Assembly (NCBI GenBank): GCA_041653595.1
Contig: JBAZFB010000003.1
Span: 64,346-128,345 of the forward strand
Reading direction: 5' to 3'
Length of the DNA stretch: 64,000 bases
Origin: Candidatus Omnitrophota bacterium
GTDB lineage: Bacteria; Omnitrophota; Gorgyraeia; Pluralincolimonadales; Pluralincolimonadaceae
Positions 798 through 20,924 of this stretch are shown in pieces. The translations under genes and the position numbers were made by a program. The number at the start of each line of letters is the position of its first letter. The stretch's first letter is position 1. A model generated the notes under the pieces. The model was given only the letters and a program-made list of their open reading frames with translations. It ran no database searches and was not told where the DNA came from.

Positions 798-1793
798 ATG
801 CTTGTCCTCGGCATCGAGACATCTTGCGATGAGACGGGTGCCGGCGTGGTAAAGGACGGCAACGAAGTGCTCTCCGACGCGGTAGCTTCTTCTCTCGAAT
901 TCCATAAGAGATACGGCGGTGTAGTCCCGGAGATAGCCACGCGCTACCATCTGGAAGTCATTGATTATGTGGTGAAGGATTCGCTCAGATCGGCCGGAAA
1001 AACGTTAAATGATATCGATCTCGTCGCGGTGACGCAGGGACCGGGACTGGTGGGCGCGCTCCTTGTCGGGATATCGTTCGCCAAATCCCTCGGTTATTCC
1101 CTCGGCATACCGGTCGTGGGCGTAAACCATCTCTGGGCGCATATCTACTCAGGGCTCATCGGCCGTACCAAGGTCAAATTTCCGATCATGGGCCTTGTCG
1201 TTTCCGGAGGCCATACCAGCCTCGTCCTTTGCGAAGATATAGGAAAATTCAGGTTGCTCGGCCAGACGAGGGACGACGCGGTAGGCGAGGCGTTCGACAA
1301 GGTCGCAAAGATACTCGGGCTTGGTTATCCGGGCGGGCCGGCGATCGAAAAGGCGGCGCTCCGCGGCGACCCGGACGCGGTCAGGTTTACTTACCCATAT
1401 ATGGGCGATGATTCATACGATTTTAGTTTCAGCGGGATGAAAACTGCGGTATTATATCATGTGAAGGGCCGGAAGCTTACCGCTGCAATGAAAGCGGATA
1501 TCGCGGCGAGTTTCCAGAAGGCCGCTGTCGGAGCGATCGTCGAAAAAGCCGTATCGGCCTGCGCGGCAAAAAAGATAGGCTGCCTGGTCGTAGGCGGAGG
1601 CGTGAGCGCCAACAGGATATTAAGGGACGAGCTTACCGGCGCCGGCGAAAGGAACGGGATAGAAGTCATATTCCCGCCGATGCGGCTTTCGCTCGATAAC
1701 GGCGCGATGATCGCCTCAACGGGTTACCTTTTATTCAAGAACGGGAAGAGGTCGGGACTGTCCCTGACCGCCGAACCGGATCTCGGCATCTAG
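798..1793 (+). CDS. tsaD: tRNA N6-adenosine threonylcarbamoyltransferase TsaD (Kae1/YgjD family)
   Basis: N-terminus 'LGIETSCDETGAGVV', 'GVNHL', 'VSGGHT', 'GGGVSAN' signature blocks of TsaD. Confidence 0.95.
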   Translation: MLVLGIETSCDETGAGVVKDGNEVLSDAVASSLEFHKRYGGVVPEIATRYHLEVIDYVVKDSLRSAGKTLNDIDLVAVTQGPGLVGALLVGISFAKSLGYSLGIPVVGVNHLWAHIYSGLIGRTKVKFPIMGLVVSGGHTSLVLCEDIGKFRLLGQTRDDAVGEAFDKVAKILGLGYPGGPAIEKAALRGDPDAVRFTYPYMGDDSYDFSFSGMKTAVLYHVKGRKLTAAMKADIAASFQKAAVGAIVEKAVSACAAKKIGCLVVGGGVSANRILRDELTGAGERNGIEVIFPPMRLSLDNGAMIASTGYLLFKNGKRSGLSLTAEPDLGI

Positions 1794-1805
1794 AAGGAGA
1801 GAGCG

Positions 1806-2489
1806 ATGGGACTCAGCGAATACGACATGATAATCAGGCTGTGCCTGGCCGCGATATTAAGCGGGTTTATAGGATACGAGCGCGAGGTCCACGGGAGGTT
1901 GGCCGGCCTGAGGACACATATCCTCGTAGGTATCGGCTCGACCCTCATAATGCTTACCTCGATGCATATATTCGATATATACAGGGGAGTGGCGACCCCT
2001 GACCCTGCCCGCATCGCGGCGCAGGTCGTTAGCGGTATAGGTTTTCTCGGAGCCGGCACGATAATAAGGTTCAAGGCCTCGGTCCGCGGCCTTACTACCG
2101 CGGCAAGCCTCTGGACCGTCGCGGGCCTCGGCCTCGCGGTCGGCGCAGGCTTATTTATAGCGGCTACCGTTACGACGATCCTGGCGTTATCGGCCCTTTT
2201 CTTCCTCAACAGGCTGGAGAGGGTAATGATAAGGAGGGATTGGTATAAGTCCCTCGAGATAGACACAAAGGCCGGCGCCTCGCAGCTCCAGGAGATACGG
2301 TCGGTCCTTTCCGAGTATGACGCGGAGATAAAAGATTTCGACGTGAAAAGATCCTCGTCTTCCGAGGACCTCATCATAAAGATCAATGTCAAGCTTTTGA
2401 CCAACGAATTCGATAGCGAGATATTGTCCAAGATCCGCGAACTGGACGGGGTCAAGAGAGCGGGTTGGTCGTCGTCGGTCGATTCATAA
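1806..2489 (+). CDS. MgtC/SapB family membrane protein
   Basis: 'ILSGFIGYEREVHGRLAGLRTHILVGIGSTLIM' MgtC N-terminal membrane domain, followed by a C-terminal soluble domain. Confidence 0.85.
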   Translation: MGLSEYDMIIRLCLAAILSGFIGYEREVHGRLAGLRTHILVGIGSTLIMLTSMHIFDIYRGVATPDPARIAAQVVSGIGFLGAGTIIRFKASVRGLTTAASLWTVAGLGLAVGAGLFIAATVTTILALSALFFLNRLERVMIRRDWYKSLEIDTKAGASQLQEIRSVLSEYDAEIKDFDVKRSSSSEDLIIKINVKLLTNEFDSEILSKIRELDGVKRAGWSSSVDS

Positions 2490-2513
2490 AAGCACGAGAG
2501 GGGGTGTGTCAAG

Positions 2514-3047
2514 ATGCTCGGCAAAGGAAGGAAAGTGGAAGAGAAGGTATTGGATGTCGATGCCAGCATGCAGGGAACGATGTCTTTCAAGGACCCGGTG
2601 AATCTGCAGATAAACGGGAGGTTTGAAGGCACGCTTGACACCAAGGGGACGCTTACTATAGGGGAGAAGGCGTTCGTGAGCGCGAACATCGTCGGAGACG
2701 AAATAACTATTGCGGGAAAAGTGACCGGCGAAGTGGTCGCGAAAAAATCCCTGAAGCTCATCTCCCCGGCGCGCGTCGACGGGAACATAAAGACGCCGCT
2801 GCTGGAGATAAGCAAGGGGGCCGTCCTGAACGGGAATTGCCAGATGGTCTCCGGAGGAAGGGCCTCGTCGCAGGCCGCGGCCGAACTGATGGAAGTGGAA
2901 GAGGTCGCCAGGTATCTCGAGGTCGATTCATCGGTGGTCAGGGATTGGGCGGTCAGCGGGAAGCTGCCCGCGATAAGGGAAGGTGACAGGCTGCATTTTG
3001 ATAAAGCCAAGATAGATGAGTGGATCGCATCGGAACGAATTAAATAA
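2514..3047 (+). CDS. Bactofilin-family protein with C-terminal excisionase-type helix-turn-helix (HTH_17) domain
   Basis: Beta-helical bactofilin repeats ('GTLTIGEKAFVSANIVGDEITIAGKVTGEVVAKKSLKL..VDGNIKTPLLEISKGAVLNG') then 'MEVEEVARYLEVDSSVVRDWAVSGKLPAIREGDRLHFDKAKIDEWI', which matches the Xis/MerR-like HTH_17 pattern. Confidence 0.7.
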   Translation: MLGKGRKVEEKVLDVDASMQGTMSFKDPVNLQINGRFEGTLDTKGTLTIGEKAFVSANIVGDEITIAGKVTGEVVAKKSLKLISPARVDGNIKTPLLEISKGAVLNGNCQMVSGGRASSQAAAELMEVEEVARYLEVDSSVVRDWAVSGKLPAIREGDRLHFDKAKIDEWIASERIK

Positions 3048-3411
3048 GGCATTCGACGCTCCGGCCGAAAAGGAGAAGCTTATAAGCCTCCATGACGCCG
3101 CGGATATCCTCGAGTTGAGCGAGGAGGAGCTGCGGCGTTTCGTCGCCGAAGGGAAGATCCCCGCTTACAGGATCGGCGGCGAATACCTGAGGTTCAGGAA
3201 GAGCCAGGTCGAGGCCTTGCGCAGCAGGATACGCATACTGAAGCACCAGTCGGTCCCGATACTCGACATCAGGCCGGCGCAGAGGGAAGAGAAGAAGGCC
3301 GGGTACTCGATATTCGACAGGATAAGGGATTTCGTATATTTTAACGATTTCTATATCCTCGCGTTCATTTTGATCGTCCTTTTAGTGGCGTTCATTCTCC
3401 TGAGAAGATAG
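3016..3411 (+). CDS. Excisionase-family HTH (HTH_17) DNA-binding protein with C-terminal transmembrane anchor
   Basis: 'ISLHDAADILELSEEELRRFVAEGKIPAYRIGGEYLRFRKSQVEAL' HTH_17 pattern; C-terminal hydrophobic helix 'FYILAFILIVLLVAFILL'; overlaps upstream gene by 32 nt; AAGGAG Shine-Dalgarno inside. Confidence 0.55.
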   Translation: MSGSHRNELNKAFDAPAEKEKLISLHDAADILELSEEELRRFVAEGKIPAYRIGGEYLRFRKSQVEALRSRIRILKHQSVPILDIRPAQREEKKAGYSIFDRIRDFVYFNDFYILAFILIVLLVAFILLRR

Positions 3412-3416
3412 ACATC

Positions 3417-4166
3417 ATGGATTATTCCAGGCGTTCGATAAAAAAAGTACTCTCTCATCTTAAGGACGGCAGGATCTCCCAGGGGGCGGCTTTCAAGAAG
3501 TTCGAGCATTTTCCTTTCCACGACATGGGTTTTGCCAAGATAGATTTCCACCGCGCCATCCGCAAGGGTTTCCCCGAAGTCATATTCGCGCCCGGCAAGA
3601 AAGACCGCGATATCGCCGAGATAGCGAAGCGCATCATCGCCAGCGGGAATACGCTCCTTATCACCAAGGCCTCACCGGAATTATACGGGTATCTTCGTAT
3701 CTCCATACCCGTCCTGAAGTTCAACGAGGACGCGAGGATGATATATTTTGCGAAAAAAAAGCCGCGGCTCAAAAAGAGCGAGGTGCTTATCGTGACCGCC
3801 GGCACATCGGATATTCCTGTCGCCGAGGAGGCGGCGTTGACGCTTGAACTCCTCGGGAACCGCGTTGGAAGGCTTTACGATGTCGGGGTCGCGGGCATAC
3901 ACAGGGTGGTCGGCAACATCCCGCTCCTGAAGAAGGCGAAGGTCATAATAGTCGTAGCCGGGATGGAGGGGGCGCTGGCCTCGATAGTCGGCGGGCTTGT
4001 CGCCTGCCCGGTCATAGCCGTGCCGACGTCGGTGGGATACGGCGCTTCGTTCGGAGGGCTCTCGCCGCTTTTGACAATGCTTAACTCATGCGCGCCGGGG
4101 GTGTGCGTAATGAACATAGATAACGGTTTCGGCGCCGGATATTTCGCGGGGCTTATAAATAAATGA
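3417..4166 (+). CDS. larB: LarB, pyridinium-3,5-biscarboxylic acid mononucleotide synthase (PurE-like) for nickel-pincer nucleotide cofactor
   Basis: N-terminal 'GFAKIDFHRAIRKGFPEVIFAPGK' LarB motif plus PurE-like C-terminal domain 'LIVTAGTSDIPVAEEAA...VIAVPTSVGYG'. Confidence 0.85.
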   Translation: MDYSRRSIKKVLSHLKDGRISQGAAFKKFEHFPFHDMGFAKIDFHRAIRKGFPEVIFAPGKKDRDIAEIAKRIIASGNTLLITKASPELYGYLRISIPVLKFNEDARMIYFAKKKPRLKKSEVLIVTAGTSDIPVAEEAALTLELLGNRVGRLYDVGVAGIHRVVGNIPLLKKAKVIIVVAGMEGALASIVGGLVACPVIAVPTSVGYGASFGGLSPLLTMLNSCAPGVCVMNIDNGFGAGYFAGLINK

Positions 4167-5350
4167 CCCATCCCAAAAAAATATTATACCTTGATTGCCC
4201 GAGCGGGATAAGCGGCGATATGTTCCTGGGATCGCTCATAGATTGCGGCCTCGATATCAGGCGCCTCGCCTCGCAGCTGCGCAAGATGAAGATAGGCGTA
4301 TATAAATTGGCCGCGCGCAAAGTCTCGCGCGCCGGCGTATCAGGCGTCAAATTCGACGTCATATATAAAAAGCACCACGGGCACGAGCATACCGACGACA
4401 AGACATTCAAGGGCATCGTGAAGGCGATAAGGTCATCGGGCCTGTCGACCCGGGTCAAGGAAATGTCAGCCGCCGTTTTCACCAACCTCGCGAAAGCGGA
4501 GAGCAGGGCCCACGGGATCCCGGTTGAGAAAGTGCATTTCCACGAGGTCGGAGATATAGATTCCGTCGTGGATATAGTCGGCGCCTGCGTCGCTCTGGAG
4601 GAGATGGAAATAGATGAGGTCTATTCTTCACGCCTCACTATCGCCGCTCCCGCTCCCGCGACCGCTTACCTGTTGCAGGGGATAGATATCTCCGTCGCCG
4701 GCGCGCCTTTTGAATTGGCCACACCCACAGGCGCCGCGCTCCTTAAGACATTTTCAAGATCGCAGATCGATATACCGGCAATGAAAGTCCTCCGGGCCGG
4801 GTTCGGCGCCGGAAGCCGTGAGATCCCGGACAGGCCGAACCTGCTCAAGGCGATAATAGGCGAGAGAAGGACAAACGGCGACGCGGATGTCGTCACGGTA
4901 TTGGAGACCAACATCGATGATATGAACCCCCAGGTCTACGGGCATCTTATCGACAGGCTCTTTGAGGCGGGGGCGCTGGATGTTTATATCACGCCCGCGA
5001 TAATGAAAAAATCGCGGCCCGCCTGCGTATTGACGGTCCTCTCCGGGCCCTCGACGGCCGGGGATCTCTCAGGGATCATCTTCGAAGAGACGTCCACATT
5101 CGGCATCAGGCGGCATAACGCCGAACGGCTGAAACTTGAACGTAAAATAGTTGAAGTAAAGACAAAATATGGTAATATAAAGGTGAAGGCGGGCTTCTAC
5201 AAGAACTCGCTTAATATCTGTTCTCCGGAATACGAAGATTGCAAAAGGATCGCGCGGCTCAAAAAGGTTCCTTTTTCGGCCGTCAGGCGCGAGGCCGAGG
5301 CCGCAGCGAGCAGGAAGATAAAAGGGGAGAAGCGGGGATTTGCTAAATAA
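4163..5350 (+). CDS. larC: LarC, nickel-pincer nucleotide cofactor nickel insertion protein (DUF111)
   Basis: 'ILYLDCPSGISGDMFLGSLIDCGLD' N-terminus diagnostic of LarC; C-terminal LarC2-like domain present. Confidence 0.85.
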   Translation: MTHPKKILYLDCPSGISGDMFLGSLIDCGLDIRRLASQLRKMKIGVYKLAARKVSRAGVSGVKFDVIYKKHHGHEHTDDKTFKGIVKAIRSSGLSTRVKEMSAAVFTNLAKAESRAHGIPVEKVHFHEVGDIDSVVDIVGACVALEEMEIDEVYSSRLTIAAPAPATAYLLQGIDISVAGAPFELATPTGAALLKTFSRSQIDIPAMKVLRAGFGAGSREIPDRPNLLKAIIGERRTNGDADVVTVLETNIDDMNPQVYGHLIDRLFEAGALDVYITPAIMKKSRPACVLTVLSGPSTAGDLSGIIFEETSTFGIRRHNAERLKLERKIVEVKTKYGNIKVKAGFYKNSLNICSPEYEDCKRIARLKKVPFSAVRREAEAAASRKIKGEKRGFAK

Positions 5351-7049
5351 GAGCAGGCTCATAGCCGAATACGTCAGGTCCATAGGGATCCTGGAAGAAT
5401 CCCAGGTCAAGAACGTCCTTAAGTCACAGGTCGAATCTGGCGGCCGTCTCTCCGACATCCTCACCGGAATAGGTTTTTTAAAGATAGAACAGCTCAGGGA
5501 CCTCATCGTGCAGGAATTCTCCCTCGCCCGTTCCCCGATCTTCGACATGGAGATACCGTTCGACGTGCTCCAGAAGGTAAAACCGAACATCGCCTACCGG
5601 CATAGGATGGTGCCTATTAAATACGCGGACGACGTGCTTACCGTCGCCACCGATGATCCCATAAATCTCCTCGGGCAGGATAATCTCGAAGACTTGACCG
5701 GATGTAAATTAAATTTTGTCCTGACCTCGGAGACCAACCTCTCGATCGCGCTCGAAAAACATTACGGGGGCAGCAAGAATATCCTCGATGCGGTCGCGCA
5801 GAAAAAGGATTCGGAGATAGCGGTATCTTTCAAGGGAGCGGCCGGAGAGGTCGCCAAGGAAGAGGAGAAAGAGGAAGCCCCGATAATAAAACTGGTCACG
5901 CAGATAATCGCCGAGGCCGTAAAGAACCGCGCCTCGGATATCCATGTCGAGCCGCTCGAGGACAAATTCCGGATAAGATACAGGATAGACGGTGTTTTGC
6001 ACGAAGTGCCGGGCCCGCCCAAACAGCTGCAGCCGTCTATTATAAGCCGCCTGAAGATCATGGCGGGCATGAATATCGCGGAGAAGAGGCTGCCCCAGGA
6101 CGGCAGGATAAGGATCCATGGCGCGGGAAAGGACCTCGACCTGCGCGTCTCCACGCTCCCCGCTCTTTATGGTGAAAGCGTGGTCATGAGGATCCTAGAT
6201 AAATCGAGTTTCATGCTGGGCCTTAAGGAATTGGGATTTCTCCACGGGGACGCGGACACGTTTGAAAGGCTGATACATCTCCCTTACGGGATGTTGCTTA
6301 TAACCGGTCCCACCGGCAGCGGCAAGACGACGACGTTATACGCCTCGCTCAGTTATATCAATAAGCCGAACAAAAAATTAATAACGATCGAGGACCCGGT
6401 CGAATACCAGATCTCAGGGATAAACCAGGTCCACGTCAAGCCTTCGATCGGCCTGACTTTCGCTTCCGGCCTCAGGACGATGCTGAGGCAGGCGCCCGAC
6501 GTCATAATGGTCGGCGAGATACGCGATTTCGAGACGGCGTCTATCGCGATACAGGCGGCCCTGACCGGGCATCTCCTCTTCAGCACGCTCCATACCAACG
6601 ACGCTGCCGGCGCTTTTACGCGCCTGATAGATATGGGCGTAAAGTCGTATCTGGTGAGCTCTACGGTGCAGGCCGTCATGGCCCAGCGCCTCGTCCGGAA
6701 GATATGCGACAACTGCAGGGAAAACTATCAACCGAGCCTCGAGGAATTATATGTGCTAGGCTACAAACAGGACGATCCGAAAGCAAGCGAGATAAAATTA
6801 TGGCGCGGGCACGGCTGCAAGAACTGCAATTATACGGGCTACCGGGGAAGGATAGGCATTTTCGAGCTTCTTATCAATACCGACGAAATAAGGGAGATGA
6901 TCATAAAGAGGCTGCCTTCTCCCGAGATCCGGGACGCGGCCCGGAGGCACGGCATGAAACTCCTGCGCGAGGACGGCCTCTCGAAAGCGCTGGAGGGCAT
7001 AACCACTATATCTGAGGTCGTGCGCATAACGCACGGTTACGAGGAATAA
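5340..7049 (+). CDS. gspE: Type II secretion/type IV pilus assembly ATPase, GspE/PilB family (paralog 1)
   Basis: GspE N-terminal domain, Walker A 'GPTGSGKTTT', Asp/His boxes, C-terminal tetracysteine 'CDNC...CKNC' zinc motif. Confidence 0.9.
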   Translation: MLNKSRLIAEYVRSIGILEESQVKNVLKSQVESGGRLSDILTGIGFLKIEQLRDLIVQEFSLARSPIFDMEIPFDVLQKVKPNIAYRHRMVPIKYADDVLTVATDDPINLLGQDNLEDLTGCKLNFVLTSETNLSIALEKHYGGSKNILDAVAQKKDSEIAVSFKGAAGEVAKEEEKEEAPIIKLVTQIIAEAVKNRASDIHVEPLEDKFRIRYRIDGVLHEVPGPPKQLQPSIISRLKIMAGMNIAEKRLPQDGRIRIHGAGKDLDLRVSTLPALYGESVVMRILDKSSFMLGLKELGFLHGDADTFERLIHLPYGMLLITGPTGSGKTTTLYASLSYINKPNKKLITIEDPVEYQISGINQVHVKPSIGLTFASGLRTMLRQAPDVIMVGEIRDFETASIAIQAALTGHLLFSTLHTNDAAGAFTRLIDMGVKSYLVSSTVQAVMAQRLVRKICDNCRENYQPSLEELYVLGYKQDDPKASEIKLWRGHGCKNCNYTGYRGRIGIFELLINTDEIREMIIKRLPSPEIRDAARRHGMKLLREDGLSKALEGITTISEVVRITHGYEE

Positions 7050-7050
7050 A

Positions 7051-8787
7051 ATGGCCCCGGAAAAAGAACAACAGTCTAAACAGGAAAAATTCAAGAAGAT
7101 AGGCCAGATGCTTCTCGAGAAAGGCCTTATAAATGACCATCAATTGGAACAGGCCCTCGAGGAACAGAAACTGACCGGTAAACTCCTGGGCCGGATCTTG
7201 ATCGATATGGGGCTGGTCAAAGAGGAGGATATCCTCCAGGTCCTCGGCGCGCGCTCAGGCTTCTCGGTAGCGAGGCTTAAGGGTACGAAGATCCCGAAGG
7301 AGGTCATCGACAAGGTCCCGGCCTCGGTCGCCAAGATATATACTATCATTCCCGTCGCCATCGACGGTAACCAGCTAACCGTCGCTATTGCCGATCCTCT
7401 GAATGTGGCTGCCTTCGACGACCTGCGGTTTACCCTCGGGATGAACATCAAGGGCGTCGTAGCCAGCGATGAGGAGATAAAAGAAGAGATACAGAAATAT
7501 TACGGATCCGAGGGAGAGACTATACAGGACGTCCTCGGCGTGTTCGGCGAAAAGATGGAACTCCTCCCGGTCGGCGAAGAAGCGACGGATATCTCCACGC
7601 TGCAGGAGCTCGCTTCCCGCGCCCCGGTCATAAAATTATTGAACATGATATTACTGCAGGGGGTCAAAGAGAAGGCCTCGGACATACATTTTGAGCCGTT
7701 CGAATCGGATTACAGGATAAGGTACAGGGTAGACGGCGTCCTCTATGAGGTGGCGCGGCCCCCGAAGAACTTGAGCCTCGGACTTTCGTCGAGGATAAAG
7801 GTCATGGCGAACCTCGATATAGCCGAACGCAGGCTTCCCCAGGACGGGCGCATCATGGTCACGATAGAAGGAAAGAGCGTCGACCTCAGGATTTCGACAT
7901 TGCCGACGATATTCGGAGAGAGCGTCGTCATGAGGGTGCTCGACAGGACGACTGTCAGCCTTTCGATCGACGATGTGGGGATGCTCGAGGATACAAAGAA
8001 GAGGATACGCACCCTGATCATCAAGCCCAACGGGATACTCCTCGCTACCGGCCCGACCGGTTGCGGCAAGACGACCACTTTGTACGGCTGCATGAAGGAG
8101 ATAAACAAGATAGAATATAAGGTCATCACGACCGAGGACCCTGTCGAGTACGACCTTAAAGGCGTAATACAGGTGCCGATAAACGCCAAGATCGGCCTTA
8201 CCTTCGCGACGTCGCTTCGCCACATCTTAAGGCAGGACCCGGATATAATCATGGTCGGCGAGATCCGCGACGCCGAGACCGCCCAGATAGCCATCCAGGC
8301 CTCGCTCACCGGACATCTCGTCTTCTCGACCATACATACCAATGACGCGGCAGGGACGATAACCAGGCTTATAGATATGGGCGTCGAGCCGTTCCTCGTG
8401 ACCTCGACGCTCGAGGCCGTACTTGCCCAACGCCTCGTCAGGAAGATATGCCAGTTCTGCAAAGAGGAATATACGCCCGAGCCGGAGATGCTATCCGACC
8501 TGGGGATAAAGCCTGAAGTCGCGAAGGGGAAGAAGTTCTACAGGGGAGCCGGCTGCGTAAAATGCAATAATTCCGGATATAAAGGAAGGACCGGCATATT
8601 TGAGCTCCTTATCCTTAACGACAAGCTCAGGGCCCTGATAATAGAGAAGGCCCATACCGCGTTGATAAAAGAGGCCGCCATAGAGGCCGGCATGAAGACC
8701 CTTCTTAACGACGGCCTTGAAAAGGTATTCCTCGGCGCCACTACGCTCGAGGAGGTCCTTAAAGAAGCCCAGACCGCGATCCTTTGA
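7051..8787 (+). CDS. gspE: Type II secretion/type IV pilus assembly ATPase, GspE/PilB family (paralog 2)
   Basis: Same architecture as upstream paralog: GspE_N domain, Walker A 'GPTGCGKTTT', 'CQFC...CVKC' zinc motif. Confidence 0.9.
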   Translation: MAPEKEQQSKQEKFKKIGQMLLEKGLINDHQLEQALEEQKLTGKLLGRILIDMGLVKEEDILQVLGARSGFSVARLKGTKIPKEVIDKVPASVAKIYTIIPVAIDGNQLTVAIADPLNVAAFDDLRFTLGMNIKGVVASDEEIKEEIQKYYGSEGETIQDVLGVFGEKMELLPVGEEATDISTLQELASRAPVIKLLNMILLQGVKEKASDIHFEPFESDYRIRYRVDGVLYEVARPPKNLSLGLSSRIKVMANLDIAERRLPQDGRIMVTIEGKSVDLRISTLPTIFGESVVMRVLDRTTVSLSIDDVGMLEDTKKRIRTLIIKPNGILLATGPTGCGKTTTLYGCMKEINKIEYKVITTEDPVEYDLKGVIQVPINAKIGLTFATSLRHILRQDPDIIMVGEIRDAETAQIAIQASLTGHLVFSTIHTNDAAGTITRLIDMGVEPFLVTSTLEAVLAQRLVRKICQFCKEEYTPEPEMLSDLGIKPEVAKGKKFYRGAGCVKCNNSGYKGRTGIFELLILNDKLRALIIEKAHTALIKEAAIEAGMKTLLNDGLEKVFLGATTLEEVLKEAQTAIL

Positions 8788-8842: not shown

Positions 8843-10111
8843 ATGGCAATATTCAATTACGTGGCTATCGACAAGGACGGGAAAGAGATAAAAGGCAGGC
8901 TCGAGGTCAACTCTAATGATGAGGTAGTGACCCAGCTCCGCCAAAAAGGGCTCTATCCGGTAAGCGTAAGCGAGGAGAAGTCGAAAACGCCCGCTGCCGG
9001 CGCGGCTAAAGACCTGCGTGAGGGCCCTGCCCCGGCTAATAAAGGATCTATACTGAATCTCTCGCTGGGAGGGGTCAGCCAGAAGCAGGTGACCGTTTTT
9101 ACGCGGCAGCTGGCTACACTTATCGGGTCAGGCCTTCCTCTTGTGCGCGCGCTTTACGTCCTTGAGCGCCAGGAGAAAGGGGCCCTGAAAACGACCATCC
9201 GCGGCCTGGCCGAACAGGTAGAAGGCGGCAGTTCTTTTTCCGAAGCGCTCTCGAAATATCCGAAGGCTTTTCCCCCGCTTTATGTAAACACGGTCAAGGC
9301 CGGCGAGACCGGCGGCGTCCTTGAAGTCGTCCTGACGCGCCTGGCTGAATTCGCCGAGAAGTCGCAGAAGCTGAACAGCAGGATAAAGGCCGCCCTTATC
9401 TATCCCGCCCTTGTCCTGACGTTGGCGCTTTCGGTCTTATTTTTCCTGATAACTTTCATTGTCCCGAAATTCATGCAGATATTCAAAGAGATGAACGTCG
9501 AACTGCCGGGTCCGACAAAGGTGCTCCTCTTCGTCAGCAGTTTGATGAAAGACAGATGGTTTGTCGGGCTAGGGATCATCATCTTTGTCATCGTGGTCTA
9601 TACGATATTGTCCAGGGTAGCGGCGACGAGGCTGGTGATCGACAGGATAAAATTGGAGCTTCCGGTAATGGGGCCGTTGATCCGCAGGATAGCCATCGCG
9701 CGTTTCTCGAGGACGCTGGGCACTTTGCTTTCGAGCGGCGTCCCCATCCTGCAGTCGCTTATGGTCGCAAAAGATACGACCGGTAACGAGGTCATGGCGC
9801 GCTCGATAGTCCATGTCCACGACAGCGTACGCGAGGGAGAGACTGTGGCCAAGCCGCTCTTAAAGGCCGGTTTGTTCCCGGCGATGGCCGTCAATATGAT
9901 ATCTGTCGGCGAAGAGACCGGCGCCCTCGACCAGATGCTCCTCAAGATCGCGGACGTCTATGATGAAGAGGTGGATGTCACGGTAACGGGCCTTATGTCG
10001 TTATTGGAACCTTTCTTGATTATCGGCATGGGCCTGATCGTCGGCTTTATAGTAGTTTCGATGTTCATGCCGCTCTTCAACCTCATAACCGCATTGGGAG
10101 GGAATGGTTAA
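8843..10111 (+). CDS. gspF: GspF/PilC-family inner-membrane platform protein
   Basis: Two T2SSF-type repeats with three TM segments; 'LATLIGSGLPLVRAL' and 'LGTLLSSGVPILQSL' paired motifs. Confidence 0.9.
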   Translation: MAIFNYVAIDKDGKEIKGRLEVNSNDEVVTQLRQKGLYPVSVSEEKSKTPAAGAAKDLREGPAPANKGSILNLSLGGVSQKQVTVFTRQLATLIGSGLPLVRALYVLERQEKGALKTTIRGLAEQVEGGSSFSEALSKYPKAFPPLYVNTVKAGETGGVLEVVLTRLAEFAEKSQKLNSRIKAALIYPALVLTLALSVLFFLITFIVPKFMQIFKEMNVELPGPTKVLLFVSSLMKDRWFVGLGIIIFVIVVYTILSRVAATRLVIDRIKLELPVMGPLIRRIAIARFSRTLGTLLSSGVPILQSLMVAKDTTGNEVMARSIVHVHDSVREGETVAKPLLKAGLFPAMAVNMISVGEETGALDQMLLKIADVYDEEVDVTVTGLMSLLEPFLIIGMGLIVGFIVVSMFMPLFNLITALGGNG

Positions 10112-10595: not shown

Positions 10596-10949
10596 ATGAG
10601 AAAAGGTTTCACGTTAATAGAGATAGTCATATCGCTCGCGATACTCGCCATAGGGCTGGTGGGCATATTGTCTCTTTTCCCGATAGGCTTTGACTCGGCG
10701 AGGCGCTCGGTGAATTCCACGCAGGTAGCGGTCTTTGCCAATAAGCACCTCGAAGAGCTGCGGAACACCGGATTTCCTTCTTTAGGCGTCACGAGCGGGG
10801 ACTTCTCCGACCCGTCTTATACGTGGACGCAGAGCGTCTCAACCGTAGACGCGATCGACGCATTAAGGCAGGTAGACCTGACGGTAAGCTGGCAATATAG
10901 GAACAGGGGTTATCAACAGGTATTCACGACCTATGTGGCGACCAGATAG
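10596..10949 (+). CDS. Minor pseudopilin (GspI-like), prepilin-type N-terminal domain
   Basis: 'KGFTLIEIVISLAILAIGL' prepilin motif with E+5; ~117 aa size typical of GspI. Confidence 0.6.
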   Translation: MRKGFTLIEIVISLAILAIGLVGILSLFPIGFDSARRSVNSTQVAVFANKHLEELRNTGFPSLGVTSGDFSDPSYTWTQSVSTVDAIDALRQVDLTVSWQYRNRGYQQVFTTYVATR

Positions 10950-11697
10950 ATATATAAGAAGGAATAGCTCCGGCCTGACCTTGGTCGAGATCCTCGTCGT
11001 GGCCGTCATCTTCTCCATCCTCGTCACCTCCCTGTTTACGGTCTTCAGGGGCGGGCTCGATTCCTGGCGCAAGGCCGAGACGATCCTCGATATGTACCAG
11101 AACGCGAGGTTCGCGCTCGACATAATGGAGCGCGAAATATCCTCCGCCTATCTTTACCAGGAGAGCGCCAACACCGCCTATTGGACTAAATTTGAAGGTT
11201 ATCTCTCCGCGTCAGGCCTAAAGACCGGCTCCGCAGGCGGCGAGATATTTTTCGTCGCGCCGATAGCGAATAATCCGGGCAATAAGCAGGACCTCTGCGA
11301 AGTCGGATATTGGCTCAGGAACGATAACCGCCTCATGCACCATTTCGAGTATTTCGACGGAAGCGTAGTGCCGGTCGCCTATGATTTTTCGAAGAAAGCC
11401 GACGGCTCCGGCGATACGGGCGCCTCGGATGCCGCCATCGCAAGTAACGTCACGGCGCTTACCTTTACCTATTATTACAGGGGTACCGCCGGCGCCGCGC
11501 CGGCCGCGACCGTTACCAGTTGGAATTCGGGCCTTGACGCGCTTACCGGCGCCACCGAGAATTACGATTCCGGCGGCAACAAACTGATACCCGACGGCCT
11601 GCCCGACGCGGTGGGGATATCCATAACGCTGCAGAGCAGGGACGGCACGCAGACAAAGACCTTCACGGATTTCATAAGGGTCGTAGGTGCGAGATGA
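10933..11697 (+). CDS. Minor pseudopilin (GspJ-like), prepilin-type N-terminal domain
   Basis: 'SGLTLVEILVVAVIFSIL' prepilin motif with E+5; long leader, start codon uncertain. Confidence 0.55.
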   Translation: MWRPDRYIRRNSSGLTLVEILVVAVIFSILVTSLFTVFRGGLDSWRKAETILDMYQNARFALDIMEREISSAYLYQESANTAYWTKFEGYLSASGLKTGSAGGEIFFVAPIANNPGNKQDLCEVGYWLRNDNRLMHHFEYFDGSVVPVAYDFSKKADGSGDTGASDAAIASNVTALTFTYYYRGTAGAAPAATVTSWNSGLDALTGATENYDSGGNKLIPDGLPDAVGISITLQSRDGTQTKTFTDFIRVVGAR

Positions 11698-19274: not shown

Positions 19275-20924
19275 ATGGGAAAACGTGCTCTAGGGATCGA
19301 TATAGGCGCGGGCTCGGTAAAACTCGTAGAGCTGGAAAAGACGGCCGAAGGTATTCAGCTCATCCGGGCGAAATTTTTTGACTTGACCCAATATGCCGAC
19401 CAGGAAAAAAGGGACACCCTTATAAGGGAAGGCATAGAGGGGTTGTTGAGAACAGAAAAGATAAAGAGCGGCAGGCTCGCGCTCTCCCTCTCGGGCCAGT
19501 CGGTATTCATCCGCTTCCTCAAGCTCCCCAAGATCCAGCAAGGCAAGATAGACAAGATAATAAAATACGAAGCGCAGCAGCAGATCCCTTTCCCCCTCGA
19601 TAAGATAAGCTGGGACCACCAGATCTTCCGCTCCGGCGCGGGCCCGGAAGAGGACGTCCTTTTCGTCGCCGCGAAAAAAGAGATTGTCGAAACTACGCTT
19701 TCGCACGTAGCGAGGACCAACCTGGACATAGAGTTCGTCGATGTCAGCCCTCTGGCCCTCCTTAATTCCATAACTTATAATGAGCCCCTCGGCAAGGGGC
19801 TGATCCTTGATATCGGCGCCAAGGCGACCAATCTTATCGTCATATCGGACAAGGGGTTCTGGGTCCGTTCAATACTTATCGCCGGCGACGAGATGACCCA
19901 TGCGATCGCCTCAAAGTTAAATATACCTTTCGACAAGGCGGAGGAGCTTAAGCGCAAAGAGGGGATGGTGGTCGCGTCAGACAGCCTTGTTCCCTCGAAC
20001 ATCACCCCGGAGGGCAAAGACCTCGTTAATGCCCTGAACCCGGTCGTCTCCGACCTGATATCTTCGATCGTCCAGTCGATGGAATTTTACAAGACCAAAC
20101 ATGCCCGCGATACCGCCTTCAACGAGATCATATTATCGGGCGGCGGCTCAAAGCTCAAGGGCATAGAGGATTTCCTGGCGAAGGGGCTTGGCATGCAGAT
20201 AAGGCGCGCCAACCTGGGCCAGAAGATAAAATGCCCGTCCAACCTCAGGGTCGATATAGATTTTCAGACGCGCTTCGGCTCTTCGATCGGCCTGGCCCTG
20301 CGCCTGCTCCAGAGGTGCCCGACCAATATAGACCTGTTGCCGGCCGAGAGGAAAGAGGAAAGGGATTTCAAAAAAGAAAAATTCTGGATAATCTCCGCGG
20401 GCCTCCTTATTGCCGTAATACCGCTCACGATAGGGTATAATATCTGGTTCCAGACGTCGACCCTGAGGAAGGAAGTGGCCTTCCTGGATTCGCTTTTGTC
20501 GGATTACGAGAACATCAACAAGGGAATAGCCAAGCTTAAGGAAGATATCAAGAACAGCGAGGCCAGGCTGGAACCCTTTGAAAATCTGGCCATAAAGAAA
20601 AGCCTCTCTCTTGAGGCCATATTGGAGATAAGGAAGCTCCTGCCCGAAGAGACCTGGCTGACGTCGGTGGCCAAGGACAAGGACCTTTTCTCGGTTGAGG
20701 GCAGGACGACCTCGAGCCTCCTGACCATCAACGTTTTCAAGAACAGGCTCGCATCCTCGCCGTTATTCGATTCGGTAGAGATAATATACGCGAGCCTGCC
20801 CCGCCAGACCGAAGAGGGCGCGGGACAATTCAGGGATTTTTCCATAAAGTTCAGGTTCAAGGGGACCGGCGCGGCTGCGGCGGCCCCGAAGGGCGAGAAG
20901 GACGAAACGAAAGGCAAGAAATAG
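19275..20924 (+). CDS. PilM-like actin-fold ATPase fused to a PilN/GspL-like membrane/periplasmic segment
   Basis: 'LGIDIGAGSVKLVELEK' PilM N-terminus with actin-like fold, then TM 'FWIISAGLLIAVIPLTIGYNIWF' and coiled-coil/periplasmic tail; 549 aa (PilM alone is ~350). Confidence 0.7.
   Translation: MGKRALGIDIGAGSVKLVELEKTAEGIQLIRAKFFDLTQYADQEKRDTLIREGIEGLLRTEKIKSGRLALSLSGQSVFIRFLKLPKIQQGKIDKIIKYEAQQQIPFPLDKISWDHQIFRSGAGPEEDVLFVAAKKEIVETTLSHVARTNLDIEFVDVSPLALLNSITYNEPLGKGLILDIGAKATNLIVISDKGFWVRSILIAGDEMTHAIASKLNIPFDKAEELKRKEGMVVASDSLVPSNITPEGKDLVNALNPVVSDLISSIVQSMEFYKTKHARDTAFNEIILSGGGSKLKGIEDFLAKGLGMQIRRANLGQKIKCPSNLRVDIDFQTRFGSSIGLALRLLQRCPTNIDLLPAERKEERDFKKEKFWIISAGLLIAVIPLTIGYNIWFQTSTLRKEVAFLDSLLSDYENINKGIAKLKEDIKNSEARLEPFENLAIKKSLSLEAILEIRKLLPEETWLTSVAKDKDLFSVEGRTTSSLLTINVFKNRLASSPLFDSVEIIYASLPRQTEEGAGQFRDFSIKFRFKGTGAAAAAPKGEKDETKGKK

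What the first reader, a model, noticed from the sequence alone, without database searches (positions are those of the whole stretch)
2514..3411. Bactofilin fused to a DNA-binding HTH, followed by a membrane-anchored HTH paralog
The 177-aa protein has a bactofilin beta-helical polymerisation core and ends with an excisionase-type HTH_17 domain. The next, overlapping gene encodes a second HTH_17 domain with a C-terminal TM helix. Bactofilins normally use unstructured tails to recruit partners such as ParB-like proteins. A directly fused DNA-binding module would make the filament itself a DNA-binding scaffold, possibly for nucleoid or plasmid positioning, or polymerisation-dependent transcription control. 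Its partner may tether DNA to the membrane. I do not know of this combination as a described family.
Basis: partly seen in the sequence, partly recalled or inferred. Interest (0 to 1): 0.65.

Follow-up and report, generated by a model that had tools for sequence, protein, structure and literature searches.

The report
Bactofilin–HTH fusion with membrane-anchored HTH partner
A cytoskeletal bactofilin protein fused to a small helix-turn-helix domain, always followed by a membrane-anchored helix-turn-helix partner, is a real and undescribed two-gene module found across the uncultured phylum Omnitrophota, but its helix-turn-helix domains have lost most of the residues that relatives use to bind DNA.

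Summary
ORF1 (2514-3047, 177 aa) has a bactofilin beta-helix, a 12-aa linker and an excisionase/MerR-type winged HTH (HTH_17). ORF2 (3016-3411, 131 aa) overlaps it by 32 nt and has an HTH_17 domain, a flexible linker, a conserved DFxYFNDFY motif and a C-terminal TM helix.

The fusion is not an assembly artefact. It occurs in at least 552 species-level genomes; the best 80 loci are all Omnitrophota MAGs or MAGs filed as uncultured Planctomycetia. ORF2 follows ORF1 in 79 of 79 loci where this can be checked, and also in the most divergent pair (36% identity, different neighbours). The region is chromosomal housekeeping DNA, not a mobile element. I found no paper describing the family.

Both HTH domains are closest in fold to BldC, Xis and RacA. 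However, the essential BldC Arg30 position is Asp/Glu in 66 of 79 ORF1 orthologues. ORF1's HTH has a median net charge of -2, against +4 to +8 for DNA-binding relatives. ORF2's recognition helix starts with a conserved acidic SEEE.

My best model is a membrane-associated bactofilin polymer that displays HTH docking modules and pairs with a tail-anchored HTH partner, as in RodZ, CbpM or BacR. Direct DNA tethering remains a live rival. I class it as a new variant of a known kind.

The parts
2496..2504 (+). Shine-Dalgarno-like GAGAGGGGG, 9 nt upstream of the ORF1 ATG. The gap to the upstream MgtC stop is only 24 nt, which suggests an operon.
   Evidence: Sequence read directly. No + strand terminator-like site lies between the genes, and promoter-like matches are at chance level.
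2514..3047 (+). ORF1, 177 aa: bactofilin fused to a winged HTH (HTH_17).
   Evidence: AlphaFold2 model with mean pLDDT 82.7.
2514..2534 (+). N-terminal peptide MLGKGRK. It resembles the bactofilin membrane-targeting sequence: one to three hydrophobic residues followed by a basic cluster.
   Evidence: The family N-termini are MLGKxKK, MMGKRDK or MAI(L/M)RR. The published global MTS consensus is MFSKKKK, and BacA has MFSKQAKS (PMC12448750). Membrane binding is inferred, not shown.
2547..2846 (+). Bactofilin beta-helix core, residues 12-111.
   Evidence: Pfam PF04519, E 2.4e-24. pLDDT above 90. Foldseek matches BacA 2n3d (TM 0.84 of target) and the T. thermophilus bactofilin 6rib (TM 0.78). L105 aligns with the polymerisation-critical BacA F130 and TtBac F105.
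2847..2882 (+). Flexible linker, residues 112-123. It is low-complexity and variable in sequence across the family; one aligned member (P0045) carries an 11-residue insertion.
   Evidence: pLDDT below 50 for residues 115-123. Variable columns in alignment A1.
2883..3044 (+). C-terminal winged HTH, residues 124-177 (helix, helix, two-stranded wing, helix). It is acidic.
   Evidence: HTH_17 E 5e-10 and TIGR01764 above its cut-off. Foldseek matches BldC 6ama/6amk (35% identity, rmsd 1.3-1.5 A), Pukovnik Xis, RacA, RdfS and pSK1 Par. Charge and contact-residue analysis.
3016..3047 (+). 32-nt overlap of ORF1 and ORF2, in different frames. This suggests translational coupling.
   Evidence: The same -32 overlap occurs in 15 related loci, and 19 of 79 pairs overlap in some form.
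3016..3411 (+). ORF2, 131 aa: a tail-anchored winged-HTH protein.
   Evidence: AlphaFold2 model. An orthologue lies immediately downstream of the fusion gene in 79 of 79 evaluable loci.
3076..3249 (+). ORF2 winged HTH (residues about 21-61) plus the following helix (62-78).
   Evidence: HTH_17 E 1.1e-8. DSSP on the model. Foldseek matches RacA 5i44, Pukovnik Xis 4j2n (36% identity), BldC, MerR-family proteins and CbpM 3ucs.
3250..3303 (+). Disordered, length-variable linker, residues about 79-96.
   Evidence: pLDDT below 50 for residues 79-81 and 83-94. Length varies by tens of residues between orthologues.
3304..3354 (+). Conserved juxtamembrane motif YSxxDRIRDFxYFNDFY, residues 97-113. It is the most conserved part of ORF2.
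   Evidence: F106 and F112 are invariant. D105, Y108, N110, D111, Y113 and I114 are at least 90% conserved. The motif was found in no other ORF of the window or the loci.
3349..3402 (+). C-terminal transmembrane helix, about residues 112-129, followed by RR and the stop codon.
   Evidence: Hydrophobic stretch read directly from the sequence. Modelled as a helix at 111-130 with pLDDT about 90. A C-terminal hydrophobic helix is also present in the most divergent partner (L088).
1806..2489 (+). Upstream MgtC-family membrane protein. It is a frequent but not obligatory neighbour and is listed as context only.
   Evidence: Pfam MgtC E 3.7e-39. Upstream in 66 of 82 loci. Absent from the L088 context, where the pair persists.

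Best explanation
This is a two-gene membrane-scaffold module found widely in Omnitrophota.

ORF1 is a bactofilin. I infer that it polymerises into non-polar filaments on the inner face of the membrane through its MTS-like N-terminus. A 12-residue linker leaves the C-terminal end of each subunit, so tail-to-tail subunit contacts would present the winged HTH domains in pairs along the filament.

ORF2 is co-translated with ORF1. It is a tail-anchored membrane protein whose own winged HTH hangs on a flexible 20-60-residue tether.

I propose that these atypically acidic HTH domains act mainly as protein-docking modules. The HTH could bind the other HTH or the bactofilin. This would couple the polymer to its integral-membrane partner, or let the polymer sequester or regulate that partner. 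Precedents are RodZ-MreB, CbpM-CbpA and BacR-BacEF. In this model, sequence-specific DNA binding is not the main role.

Shown: the domain architecture, the folds, the conservation, the obligate gene pairing, and the loss of canonical DNA-contact residues. Inferred: polymerisation, membrane binding, the physical ORF1-ORF2 complex, and the non-DNA ligand.
For: Architecture and folds.

Obligate pairing:
- ORF2 orthologues lie directly downstream in 79 of 79 evaluable loci, and 19 of the pairs overlap.
- The pair persists at 36% identity in a different neighbourhood, next to SPOR and TPR/PDZ genes.

Polymer and membrane features:
- L105 aligns with BacA F130 and TtBac F105.
- The N-termini resemble the published MTS.

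Evidence against canonical DNA binding:
- In the ORF1 HTH, the BldC-Arg30 position is Glu/Asp in 66 of 79 orthologues.
- Lys26 is replaced by Ser/Asn/Ala/Gly, Thr27 by Val/Leu/Met, and Arg47 by Trp.
- The median net charge is -2, range -5 to +1 (with contacts from PMC5859096).
- The controls are basic: BldC +6, Xis +4, and the Omnitrophota stand-alone HTH_17 +4/+8 with Lys at the Arg30 position.
- The exposed recognition-helix positions of ORF1's HTH are its most variable: the top residue accounts for only 18-22 of 79 at columns 15, 19 and 23. Helix 1, the wing and helix 3 are strongly conserved.
- ORF2's recognition helix starts with a conserved SEEE.

Precedents:
- CbpM has a MerR-like fold that lost its DNA-binding residues and binds a basic protein through acidic residues (PMC4063869). 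It is also a Foldseek hit of ORF2.
- B. subtilis bactofilins bind the HTH protein BacR, hold it at the membrane and block its DNA binding (PMC13649987).

A close bactofilin relative carries PilZ in place of the HTH, which suggests the C-terminal position holds exchangeable adaptor or sensor modules.
Against: - Every solved structure among the closest fold matches binds DNA (BldC, Xis, RacA, RdfS, pSK1 Par). The prior for an HTH_17 domain therefore strongly favours DNA.
- The invariant Trp (BldC W31) and the wing Arg/Lys (BldC R48; Arg in 79 of 79 ORF2 orthologues) are kept.
- A conserved Glu in a recognition helix can contact cytosine in some DNA-binding proteins (general knowledge).
- A polymer would add avidity to a weak site.
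- No direct test of an ORF1-ORF2 contact was possible.
- Net charges of the paired domains do not co-vary: Spearman 0.08, p 0.46.
Confidence: 0.4

Rival explanations
1. DNA-binding filament and DNA-membrane tether. The bactofilin polymer binds chromosomal DNA directly through arrays of paired HTH domains, and the tail-anchored HTH partner ties the same DNA to the membrane. This would merge a RacA/DivIVA-like or BacNOP-PadC-ParB-like nucleoid-anchoring function into one polymer.
For: - The HTH folds are closest to the DNA-binding proteins BldC, Xis, RacA and pSK1 Par.
- BldC itself works as a head-to-tail multimer on DNA, so arraying HTHs on a polymer is mechanistically attractive.
- The BldC W31 and R48 equivalents are conserved, and ORF2 keeps basic residues at the T29, R48 and R50 equivalents.
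- Bactofilins already organise ParABS in M. xanthus (PMC5703909).
- The module is a core, single-locus chromosomal gene pair.
Against: - The essential Arg30 equivalent is acidic in 84% of ORF1 orthologues, and most phosphate and base contacts are lost.
- ORF1's HTH domain has a net negative charge.
- ORF2 has acidic residues at the Lys26, Thr27 and Lys33 equivalents.
- The DNA-facing positions of ORF1's HTH are its least conserved.
- No repeats or operator-like sequences lie in or near the locus.
Confidence: 0.3
2. BacR-like regulatory switch. One HTH, more likely ORF2's, is a weak transcription factor or nucleoid-associated protein. The polymer's acidic HTH acts as a decoy that occupies ORF2's DNA-binding face. 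Gene expression would then respond to the polymerisation or membrane state of the bactofilin.
For: - In B. subtilis, bactofilins bind BacR, reduce its DNA binding and hold it at the membrane.
- ORF1's HTH is acidic and ORF2's is neutral to basic: median 0, range -3 to +5 for the HTH alone, up to +6 when the following helix is included.
- CbpM uses an acidic MerR-like surface to block a basic partner.
- The genes appear translationally coupled.
Against: - ORF2 is permanently membrane-anchored by a TM helix and has no evident release mechanism.
- No protease, sensor domain or anti-sigma-like module lies in the conserved core.
- Charges of the paired domains do not co-vary.
- No operator candidates were found.
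- Neither protein matches DUF4004/BacR.
Confidence: 0.15
3. The two genes are merely adjacent, and the HTH_17 domain on the bactofilin is a neutral or degenerate appendage. ORF1 would be an ordinary cell-shape bactofilin and ORF2 an unrelated small membrane protein.
For: - Synteny in Omnitrophota is generally well conserved around this locus, from gatAB to larBC, so adjacency alone could reflect inertia.
Against: - The pair survives complete replacement of its neighbourhood.
- Surface residues of ORF1's HTH are strongly conserved down to 54-60% identity.
- The start and stop codons overlap.
- Both partners carry the same domain family, which is unlikely by chance.
Confidence: 0.05

Closest known systems
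Canonical bactofilins (C. crescentus BacA, PDB 2n3d; T. thermophilus bactofilin, PDB 6ria/6rib)
   Same: - The same DUF583 beta-helix core (Pfam 85.9 bits; Foldseek TM 0.84 and 0.78 of target).
- A hydrophobic residue at the polymerisation-critical position.
- An MTS-like N-terminal peptide.
   Different: Canonical bactofilins have short unstructured C-terminal tails. Here the tail is a folded winged HTH domain on a 12-residue linker. The gene is also locked to a tail-anchored HTH partner.
B. subtilis BacR (YhbD, DUF4004) with bactofilins BacE/BacF (PMC13649987)
   Same: - An HTH protein is encoded in the same operon as bactofilins.
- The bactofilins bind it and hold it at the membrane, and its DNA binding is antagonised.
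- This is the closest functional precedent for a bactofilin-HTH partnership.
   Different: - BacR is a separate, soluble protein of a different family. DUF4004 was not detected in ORF1 or ORF2.
- Here one HTH is covalently fused to the bactofilin and the other is anchored by a TM helix.
- The two systems are from different phyla.
M. xanthus BacNOP-PadC-ParAB (PMC5703909)
   Same: A bactofilin scaffold linked to chromosome organisation. This is the model behind the DNA-tether rival.
   Different: The link to DNA there is indirect: the adaptor PadC binds a bactofilin tail and recruits ParA, and ParB-parS docks to the scaffold. No DNA-binding domain is fused to the bactofilin (established knowledge; only the title and abstract were seen).
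RacA-DivIVA (B. subtilis; RacA-DNA structure, PDB 5i44)
   Same: A MerR-like winged HTH that attaches DNA to a membrane-associated scaffold. RacA is the top Foldseek hit of ORF2 and a hit of ORF1's HTH.
   Different: - RacA is a soluble protein with a coiled coil and binds DivIVA non-covalently.
- RacA uses an Arg equivalent to BldC Arg30. That position is acidic in ORF1's HTH and variable in ORF2's.
BldC family (S. venezuelae BldC, PDB 6ama/6amk; NF033787)
   Same: The closest solved structure to ORF1's HTH: 35% identity and rmsd 1.3-1.5 A over 49 residues. BldC works as a multimer.
   Different: - The match scores 25.8 bits against the NF033787 cut-off of 77.
- Most BldC DNA-contact residues are not conserved.
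- BldC is a free 68-residue protein.
RodZ-MreB
   Same: Works in a similar way: a single-pass membrane protein whose cytoplasmic HTH binds a cytoskeletal polymer rather than DNA (established knowledge).
   Different: - RodZ has an XRE-type HTH and a periplasmic domain, and its partner is actin-like MreB.
- ORF2 has an HTH_17 domain, has no periplasmic domain (2 residues after the TM helix), and its presumed partner is a bactofilin.
- ORF2 is not a member of the RodZ family.
CbpM (PDB 3ucs; PMC4063869)
   Same: A MerR-like HTH fold that has lost the Tyr/Arg DNA-binding residues and uses acidic residues to bind a basic protein surface. It is a Foldseek hit of ORF2.
   Different: CbpM is a soluble dimer with a parallel coiled coil that regulates a DnaJ-like co-chaperone. 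It has no cytoskeletal or membrane link.

Membership tests
Bactofilin (PF04519/DUF583) | Profile match above the Pfam gathering score | tested here: met
   85.9 bits against 27.9, residues 12-110.
Bactofilin (PF04519/DUF583) | Right-handed beta-helix fold superimposable on solved bactofilins | tested here: met
   AlphaFold2 pLDDT above 90 over residues 20-110. Foldseek matches 2n3d (rmsd 1.9 A, TM 0.84 of target) and 6rib (TM 0.78).
Bactofilin (PF04519/DUF583) | Hydrophobic residue at the C-terminal polymerisation interface (BacA F130, TtBac F105) | tested here: met
   L105 aligns with both. The position is Leu, Phe or Ile across alignment A1.
Bactofilin (PF04519/DUF583) | N-terminal membrane-targeting sequence (consensus MFSKKKK) | tested here: inconclusive
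   The window has MLGKGRK, and the family has M-[LMI]-G-[KR]-x-x-K or MA[IL][LM]RR. This resembles the consensus in PMC12448750, but position 2 is Leu/Met rather than Phe.
Bactofilin (PF04519/DUF583) | Nucleotide-independent polymerisation into filaments | not testable with these tools
   Needs purified protein, electron microscopy or sedimentation.
HTH_17 / excisionase-type winged HTH (PF12728, TIGR01764) | Profile match above the curated cut-offs | tested here: met
   ORF1: 39.9 against 27 (Pfam) and 34.1 against 28.8 (TIGR01764). ORF2: 35.7 against 27 and 32.0 against 28.8.
HTH_17 / excisionase-type winged HTH (PF12728, TIGR01764) | Winged HTH fold: helix, helix, two-stranded wing, helix | tested here: met
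   DSSP on the models. Foldseek matches BldC, Xis and RacA at rmsd 1.1-1.9 A.
HTH_17 / excisionase-type winged HTH (PF12728, TIGR01764) | Conservation of DNA-contacting residues (BldC K26, T27, T29, R30, W31, K33, H46, R47, R48) | tested here: not met
   ORF1's HTH family keeps only W31 and R48, and the R30 equivalent is E/D in 66 of 79. ORF2's HTH has E/D at K26 and T27 and mostly D/A/E at K33, and keeps R48.
HTH_17 / excisionase-type winged HTH (PF12728, TIGR01764) | Role as a recombination directionality factor next to an integrase or mobile element (true excisionases) | tested here: not met
   The context is chromosomal housekeeping: gatAB, ctpB, tsaD, mgtC, larBC, a type IV pilus-like cluster, polA, rho and prfA. 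It is conserved across species. The database label 'excisionase family' is misleading here.
HTH_17 / excisionase-type winged HTH (PF12728, TIGR01764) | DNA binding | not testable with these tools
   Needs EMSA or fluorescence polarisation. The sequence-level indicators are unfavourable.
BldC family (NF033787) | Score above the NCBIfam cut-off | tested here: not met
   25.8 bits (ORF1) and 14.8 bits (ORF2) against a cut-off of 77.
MADS MAD1 antiphage HTH (NF047737 / PADLOC mad1) | Score above the cut-off and a defence-system context | tested here: not met
   38.4 and 24.3 bits against a cut-off of 80. PADLOC gives only weak domain-level hits. No methyltransferase or defence genes are nearby.
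BacR / DUF4004 (PF13171) | DUF4004 profile match | tested here: not met
   No DUF4004 hit for ORF1 or ORF2 at E<=0.1. As a positive control, the BacR HTH peptide does hit DUF4004.
Classical MerR regulators | Winged HTH followed by a long antiparallel coiled coil and an effector-binding domain | tested here: not met
   MerR_1 scores are below the cut-off: 18.6 and 20.7 against 21.6. ORF1's HTH ends the protein. ORF2 has only a 17-residue helix, then a disordered linker and a TM helix.
RodZ | XRE-type HTH, TM helix and periplasmic domain; binds MreB | tested here: not met
   There was no XRE/HTH_25 hit. The HTH is HTH_17 type, and only 2 residues follow the TM helix. The similarity is an analogy of mechanism only.

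The most novel reading that the evidence does not exclude
The bactofilin polymer is itself a nucleoid-organising element. Membrane-bound filaments would display pairs of winged HTH domains at every tail-to-tail junction and bind chromosomal DNA by avidity through a non-canonical interface. Together with the tail-anchored HTH partner they would pin the chromosome to the membrane. This would be a single-polymer equivalent of RacA-DivIVA or BacNOP-PadC-ParB, and a core feature of cell organisation in the ultra-small, uncultured Omnitrophota.
Probability: 0.28. Interest if true: 0.8.

Novelty: new variant of a known kind. Interest (0 to 1): 0.6.

Why it matters
Bactofilins are widespread but poorly understood cytoskeletal scaffolds. 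They are usually described as recruiting clients through short disordered tails. Here a folded winged HTH is fused to the polymer and locked to a membrane-anchored HTH partner, across at least 552 species-level genomes whose 80 best-matching loci are all Omnitrophota-type MAGs.

Two outcomes are possible, and both are informative:
- It is the first direct, covalent link between a bacterial cytoskeletal polymer and DNA.
- It is a new case of an HTH fold re-used as a protein-docking module.

It also acts as a 'Rosetta-stone' fusion. It independently supports the bactofilin-HTH partnership recently reported for BacR and BacEF in B. subtilis.

Both proteins are small and could be expressed in E. 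coli, so the DNA-versus-protein question can be tested directly without culturing an Omnitrophota organism.

Many JGI database entries name these proteins 'excisionase family DNA binding protein'. That label is misleading in this chromosomal housekeeping context.

Tried and rejected
1. Co-folding the two HTH domains. I built a chimeric HTH1-linker-HTH2 paired alignment (43 pairs, alignment A3).

2. Charge complementarity between paired HTH domains across 79 loci. There is no correlation: Spearman 0.08, p 0.46, and 0.36, p 0.11 after de-replication to 20 pairs. This neither supports nor excludes an electrostatic interface.

3. Operator-like direct or inverted repeats in 1700-3600. Only short two-copy matches typical of chance were found. 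Promoter-like sites are at shuffle level, and no + strand terminators lie between the genes.

4. Mobile-element or defence origin. This is rejected by the conserved housekeeping synteny, the sub-threshold MAD1 scores and the absence of an integrase.

5. Assembly artefact or frameshifted fusion. This is rejected by the number of independent assemblies and genomes carrying the fusion.

6. MgtC as an obligatory third partner. It is upstream in 66 of 82 loci but absent from the divergent L088 context where the pair persists. I treat it as a frequent neighbour only.

7. A C-terminal sorting signal (conserved motif, TM helix, basic tail, as in LPXTG or PEP-CTERM). I rejected this because ORF2 has no signal peptide and its N-terminus is a cytoplasmic-type HTH. 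The motif occurs in no other ORF examined.

8. BacR's HTH belonging to the same HTH class. This is not supported: the published BacR HTH peptide hits only DUF4004 and, weakly, Cro/C1-type profiles.

9. Literature searches for bactofilin with helix-turn-helix, excisionase, DNA-binding domain fusion, Omnitrophota or Omnitrophica. None returned a description of this family.
Full report
**Observation.**
- ORF1 (2514-3047, +, 177 aa) matches Pfam Bactofilin over residues 12-110 (85.9 bits, cut-off 27.9). It matches HTH_17 over residues 126-174 (39.9 bits, cut-off 27). The NCBIfam 'excise' domain TIGR01764 is also above its cut-off.
- ORF2 (3016-3411, +, 131 aa) matches HTH_17 over residues 25-68 (35.7 bits) and TIGR01764 (32.0 against 28.8). 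It ends in an 18-residue hydrophobic stretch followed by RR.
- The genes overlap by 32 nt in different frames. ATG 3016 is the only start codon upstream of the ORF2 HTH. ORF1 has a Shine-Dalgarno-like GAGAGGGGG 9 nt upstream and sits 24 nt after the MgtC stop codon.
- No + strand terminator-like sites separate the genes.

**The fusion is real and widespread.**
- A search of 5.8 billion protein clusters found 1661 relatives. The best 120 all carry both Pfam domains and are 173-196 aa long. Where a source names them, they are 'MAG: polymer-forming cytoskeletal protein [Candidatus Omnitrophota/Omnitrophica]' or 'excisionase family DNA binding protein'.
The best 80 loci are all Omnitrophota MAGs or 'uncultured Planctomycetia' bins with the same genes.
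- An exhaustive HMMER search of 1.84 billion 50%-identity representatives gave 9419 hits, mostly plain bactofilins. Only 23 reach E<=1e-30, and about 25 are full-length two-domain clusters. The family is therefore compact.
- A second, very divergent Bactofilin+HTH_17 family (P0284, 25% identity) is also from Omnitrophota.
- I found no paper describing a bactofilin-HTH fusion or bactofilins in this phylum.

**The two genes form a unit.**
- In 82 related loci, an ORF2 orthologue (HTH_17 plus a C-terminal hydrophobic helix) lies directly downstream on the same strand in 79. The gap ranges from -32 to +154 nt. The three exceptions are contigs that end right after the fusion gene.
- Fifteen loci share the same 32-nt overlap, and 19 pairs overlap in some way.
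- The wider synteny is gatA-gatB-ctpB-(YibQ-like deacetylase)-tsaD-mgtC-[ORF1]-[ORF2]-larB-larC or type IV pilus-like genes. TsaD is upstream in 72 of 82 loci, MgtC in 66 of 82, and LarB is downstream in 45 of 82.
- The most divergent full-length relative (P0199, 36% identity) sits in a different neighbourhood, after a SPOR protein and a TPR/PDZ protein. It is still followed 10 nt later by a 97-aa HTH_17 protein with a C-terminal TM helix. The pair, not the neighbourhood, is conserved.
- The rest of the window is chromosomal housekeeping DNA: two T2SSE ATPases, T2SSF, pseudopilins, a PilM-PilN fusion, PolA, glycogen synthase, Rho, RF1 and FTHFS. It contains no integrase, so the 'excisionase' label is misleading here.

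**Anatomy of ORF1.** The AlphaFold2 model (25-sequence alignment, mean pLDDT 82.7) has three parts:
- a beta-helix at residues 12-111 with pLDDT above 90;
- a disordered linker at about 112-123;
- a helix-helix-wing-helix domain at 124-177 with pLDDT of about 85-90 over most of it, falling at the extreme C-terminus.

Foldseek places the core on BacA (2n3d, rmsd 1.9 A) and the T. thermophilus bactofilin (6rib). It places the C-terminal domain on BldC (35% identity, rmsd 1.3-1.5 A), Pukovnik Xis, RacA, RdfS and pSK1 Par. L105 aligns with the polymerisation-critical residues BacA F130 and TtBac F105. The family N-termini (MLGKxKK, MMGKRDK, MAILRR) resemble the published bactofilin membrane-targeting consensus MFSKKKK (PMC12448750).

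**Anatomy of ORF2.** The model has a winged HTH at 22-61, a helix at 62-78, a disordered and length-variable linker at about 79-98, a short helix at 99-109 and a TM helix at 111-130. The most conserved part of the protein is the juxtamembrane motif YSxxDRIRDFxYFNDFY. It was found in no other ORF of the window or the loci. Foldseek hits are RacA, Xis, BldC, MerR-family regulators and CbpM.

**Do the HTH domains look DNA-binding?** I aligned both domains to BldC, whose DNA contacts are published: K26, T27, T29, R30 (R30A abolishes binding), W31, K33, H46 (H46E abolishes binding), R47 and R48 (PMC5859096). I then counted residues at each position in 79 paired orthologues.

| BldC residue | ORF1 HTH family | ORF2 HTH family |
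|---|---|---|
| K26 | Ser/Asn/Ala/Gly | Glu/Asp, part of a conserved SEEE at the start of the helix |
| T27 | Val/Leu/Met | Glu/Asp, part of the same SEEE |
| T29 | variable | Lys/Arg |
| R30 | Glu 48, Asp 18, Asn 5, Ser 4 | mixed |
| W31 | Trp, invariant | Leu/Phe |
| K33 | Asn/Ser/Asp/Lys | Asp/Ala/Glu |
| R47 | Trp | Leu |
| R48 | Arg/Lys/His, kept | Arg in 79 of 79 |
| R50 | Asp/Glu | Arg/Lys |

- The median net charge is -2 for ORF1's HTH (range -5 to +1) and 0 for ORF2's HTH.
- DNA-binding relatives are basic: +6 for BldC and +4 for Pukovnik Xis. A stand-alone 65-aa HTH_17 protein encoded a few kb away in related Omnitrophota loci scores +4 or +8 and has Lys at the Arg30 position.
- The exposed recognition-helix positions of ORF1's HTH are its most variable columns. 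Helix 1, the wing and helix 3 are strongly conserved. This pattern fits a conserved protein interface better than sequence-specific DNA reading.
- The divergent P0284 family also has Glu at the Arg30 position.
- These are indicators, not proof. The conserved Trp and wing Arg/Lys, and the avidity a polymer would provide, leave room for non-canonical DNA binding.

**Precedents.**
- CbpM has a MerR-like fold that lost its Tyr/Arg DNA-binding residues. It uses acidic residues to bind the basic J-domain of CbpA (PMC4063869).
- In B. subtilis, the HTH protein BacR is encoded with the bactofilins BacE and BacF. They bind it, which blocks its DNA binding, and they hold it at the membrane (PMC13649987). 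BacR belongs to a different family, DUF4004.
- RodZ is a membrane-anchored HTH that binds MreB (established knowledge).
- A close relative of the bactofilin core (P0213, 48% identity) carries a PilZ domain in place of the HTH and sits next to a multi-pass membrane protein and two-component genes. The C-terminal position therefore seems to host exchangeable adaptor or sensor modules.

**Mechanism.** My best-supported model (confidence about 0.4) is as follows.
- ORF1 forms membrane-associated non-polar filaments. This is inferred from the conserved core, the interface residue and the MTS-like peptide.
- Because bactofilin subunits meet tail-to-tail, the short linker would present HTH domains in pairs along the polymer.
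- ORF2 is made in step with ORF1 through translational coupling. It is tail-anchored, with its HTH on a flexible tether.
- The two acidic or neutral HTH modules act as docking elements. They connect the polymer to its integral-membrane partner, or sequester that partner.

A BacR-like switch, in which ORF1's acidic HTH masks a weakly DNA-binding ORF2, is third (about 0.15). Coincidental adjacency is unlikely (about 0.05).

**What could not be done.**
- Charge co-variation was uninformative.
- No operator-like repeats were found.

**Verdict.** The module is a new variant of a known kind: a bactofilin with a folded HTH tail and an obligate tail-anchored HTH partner. It is found widely in Omnitrophota and is undescribed. 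Interest is 0.6. Both proteins are small and could be expressed heterologously, so the key question (DNA or protein ligand) can be tested directly.

Noticed in passing
P0213; locus L087:768-1529: A close relative of the bactofilin core (48% identity) carries a C-terminal PilZ (c-di-GMP receptor) domain in place of the HTH. A 225-aa multi-pass membrane protein precedes it. A hybrid histidine kinase, a sigma-54 activator and a response regulator follow it. This suggests a c-di-GMP-responsive bactofilin.
   Followed up: partly
P0284/P0325; locus L085:1743-2306: A second, very divergent (25% identity) Bactofilin+HTH_17 family exists in Omnitrophota, also with Glu at the BldC-Arg30 position. It has no HTH-TM partner. 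Instead a 272-aa multi-pass membrane protein follows it, which by eye resembles the one next to the PilZ fusion (not compared with a tool).
   Followed up: partly
L088:4001-4841 and L089: The most divergent pair (P0199, 36% identity) lies after a SPOR-domain protein and a TPR/PDZ protein rather than TsaD and MgtC. This hints at a cell-envelope or division context. Its partner keeps the HTH and C-terminal TM helix but lacks the FNDFY motif.
   Followed up: partly
window 3304-3354 (ORF2 residues 97-113): The juxtamembrane motif YSxxDRIRDFxYFNDFY is more conserved than the ORF2 HTH itself and occurs in no other ORF examined. It may mark an interaction at the membrane interface. The frequent upstream neighbour MgtC, a multi-pass membrane protein, is a speculative candidate partner.
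   Followed up: partly
P0245 (417 aa): A single protein has seven tandem HTH_17/MerR-type repeats, like a covalently linked version of the head-to-tail BldC multimer. Its origin and context were not examined.
   Followed up: no
L001:10734-10931, L003:9097-9294, L025:7076-7273: A stand-alone, strongly basic 65-aa HTH_17 protein (BldC-like size, Lys at the Arg30 position) lies about 2.5-4 kb downstream of the pair (from the ORF1 stop) in some Omnitrophota. It was used here as an in-phylum control. No equivalent ORF was found in the 64-kb window.
   Followed up: partly
window 5340-25700: A large type IV pilus / T2SS-like cluster follows the locus. It contains two adjacent T2SSE ATPases with MshEN N-domains (5340-7049, 7051-8787), T2SSF (8843-10111), a pseudopilin (10933-11697), a 992-aa PA14-domain protein (11694-14672), several large ORFs with no Pfam match, and a PilM-PilN fusion (19275-20924).
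   Followed up: partly
window 3417-5350: LarB-like (AIR carboxylase fold) and LarC (nickel insertion) genes follow ORF2 directly and overlap each other by 4 nt. They are downstream in about half of the related loci. LarE and LarA were not looked for.
   Followed up: no
loci L012, L020, L022, L023 and others: MAGs deposited as 'uncultured Planctomycetia' (binchicken bins) carry orthologues of the Omnitrophota pair (e.g. 72-84% identical in L012, L020 and L022; others as low as 53%), each directly followed by the ORF2 orthologue. Their taxonomic label is probably a placeholder.
   Followed up: no
window 1-64000: Essentially all long ORFs are on the + strand, and GC skew is positive throughout (cumulative skew rises monotonically). 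This fits one long leading-strand stretch with no origin or terminus. In the complete 1.43-Mb Omnitrophota chromosome CP070780.1 the locus lies at about 48% of the record.
   Followed up: no
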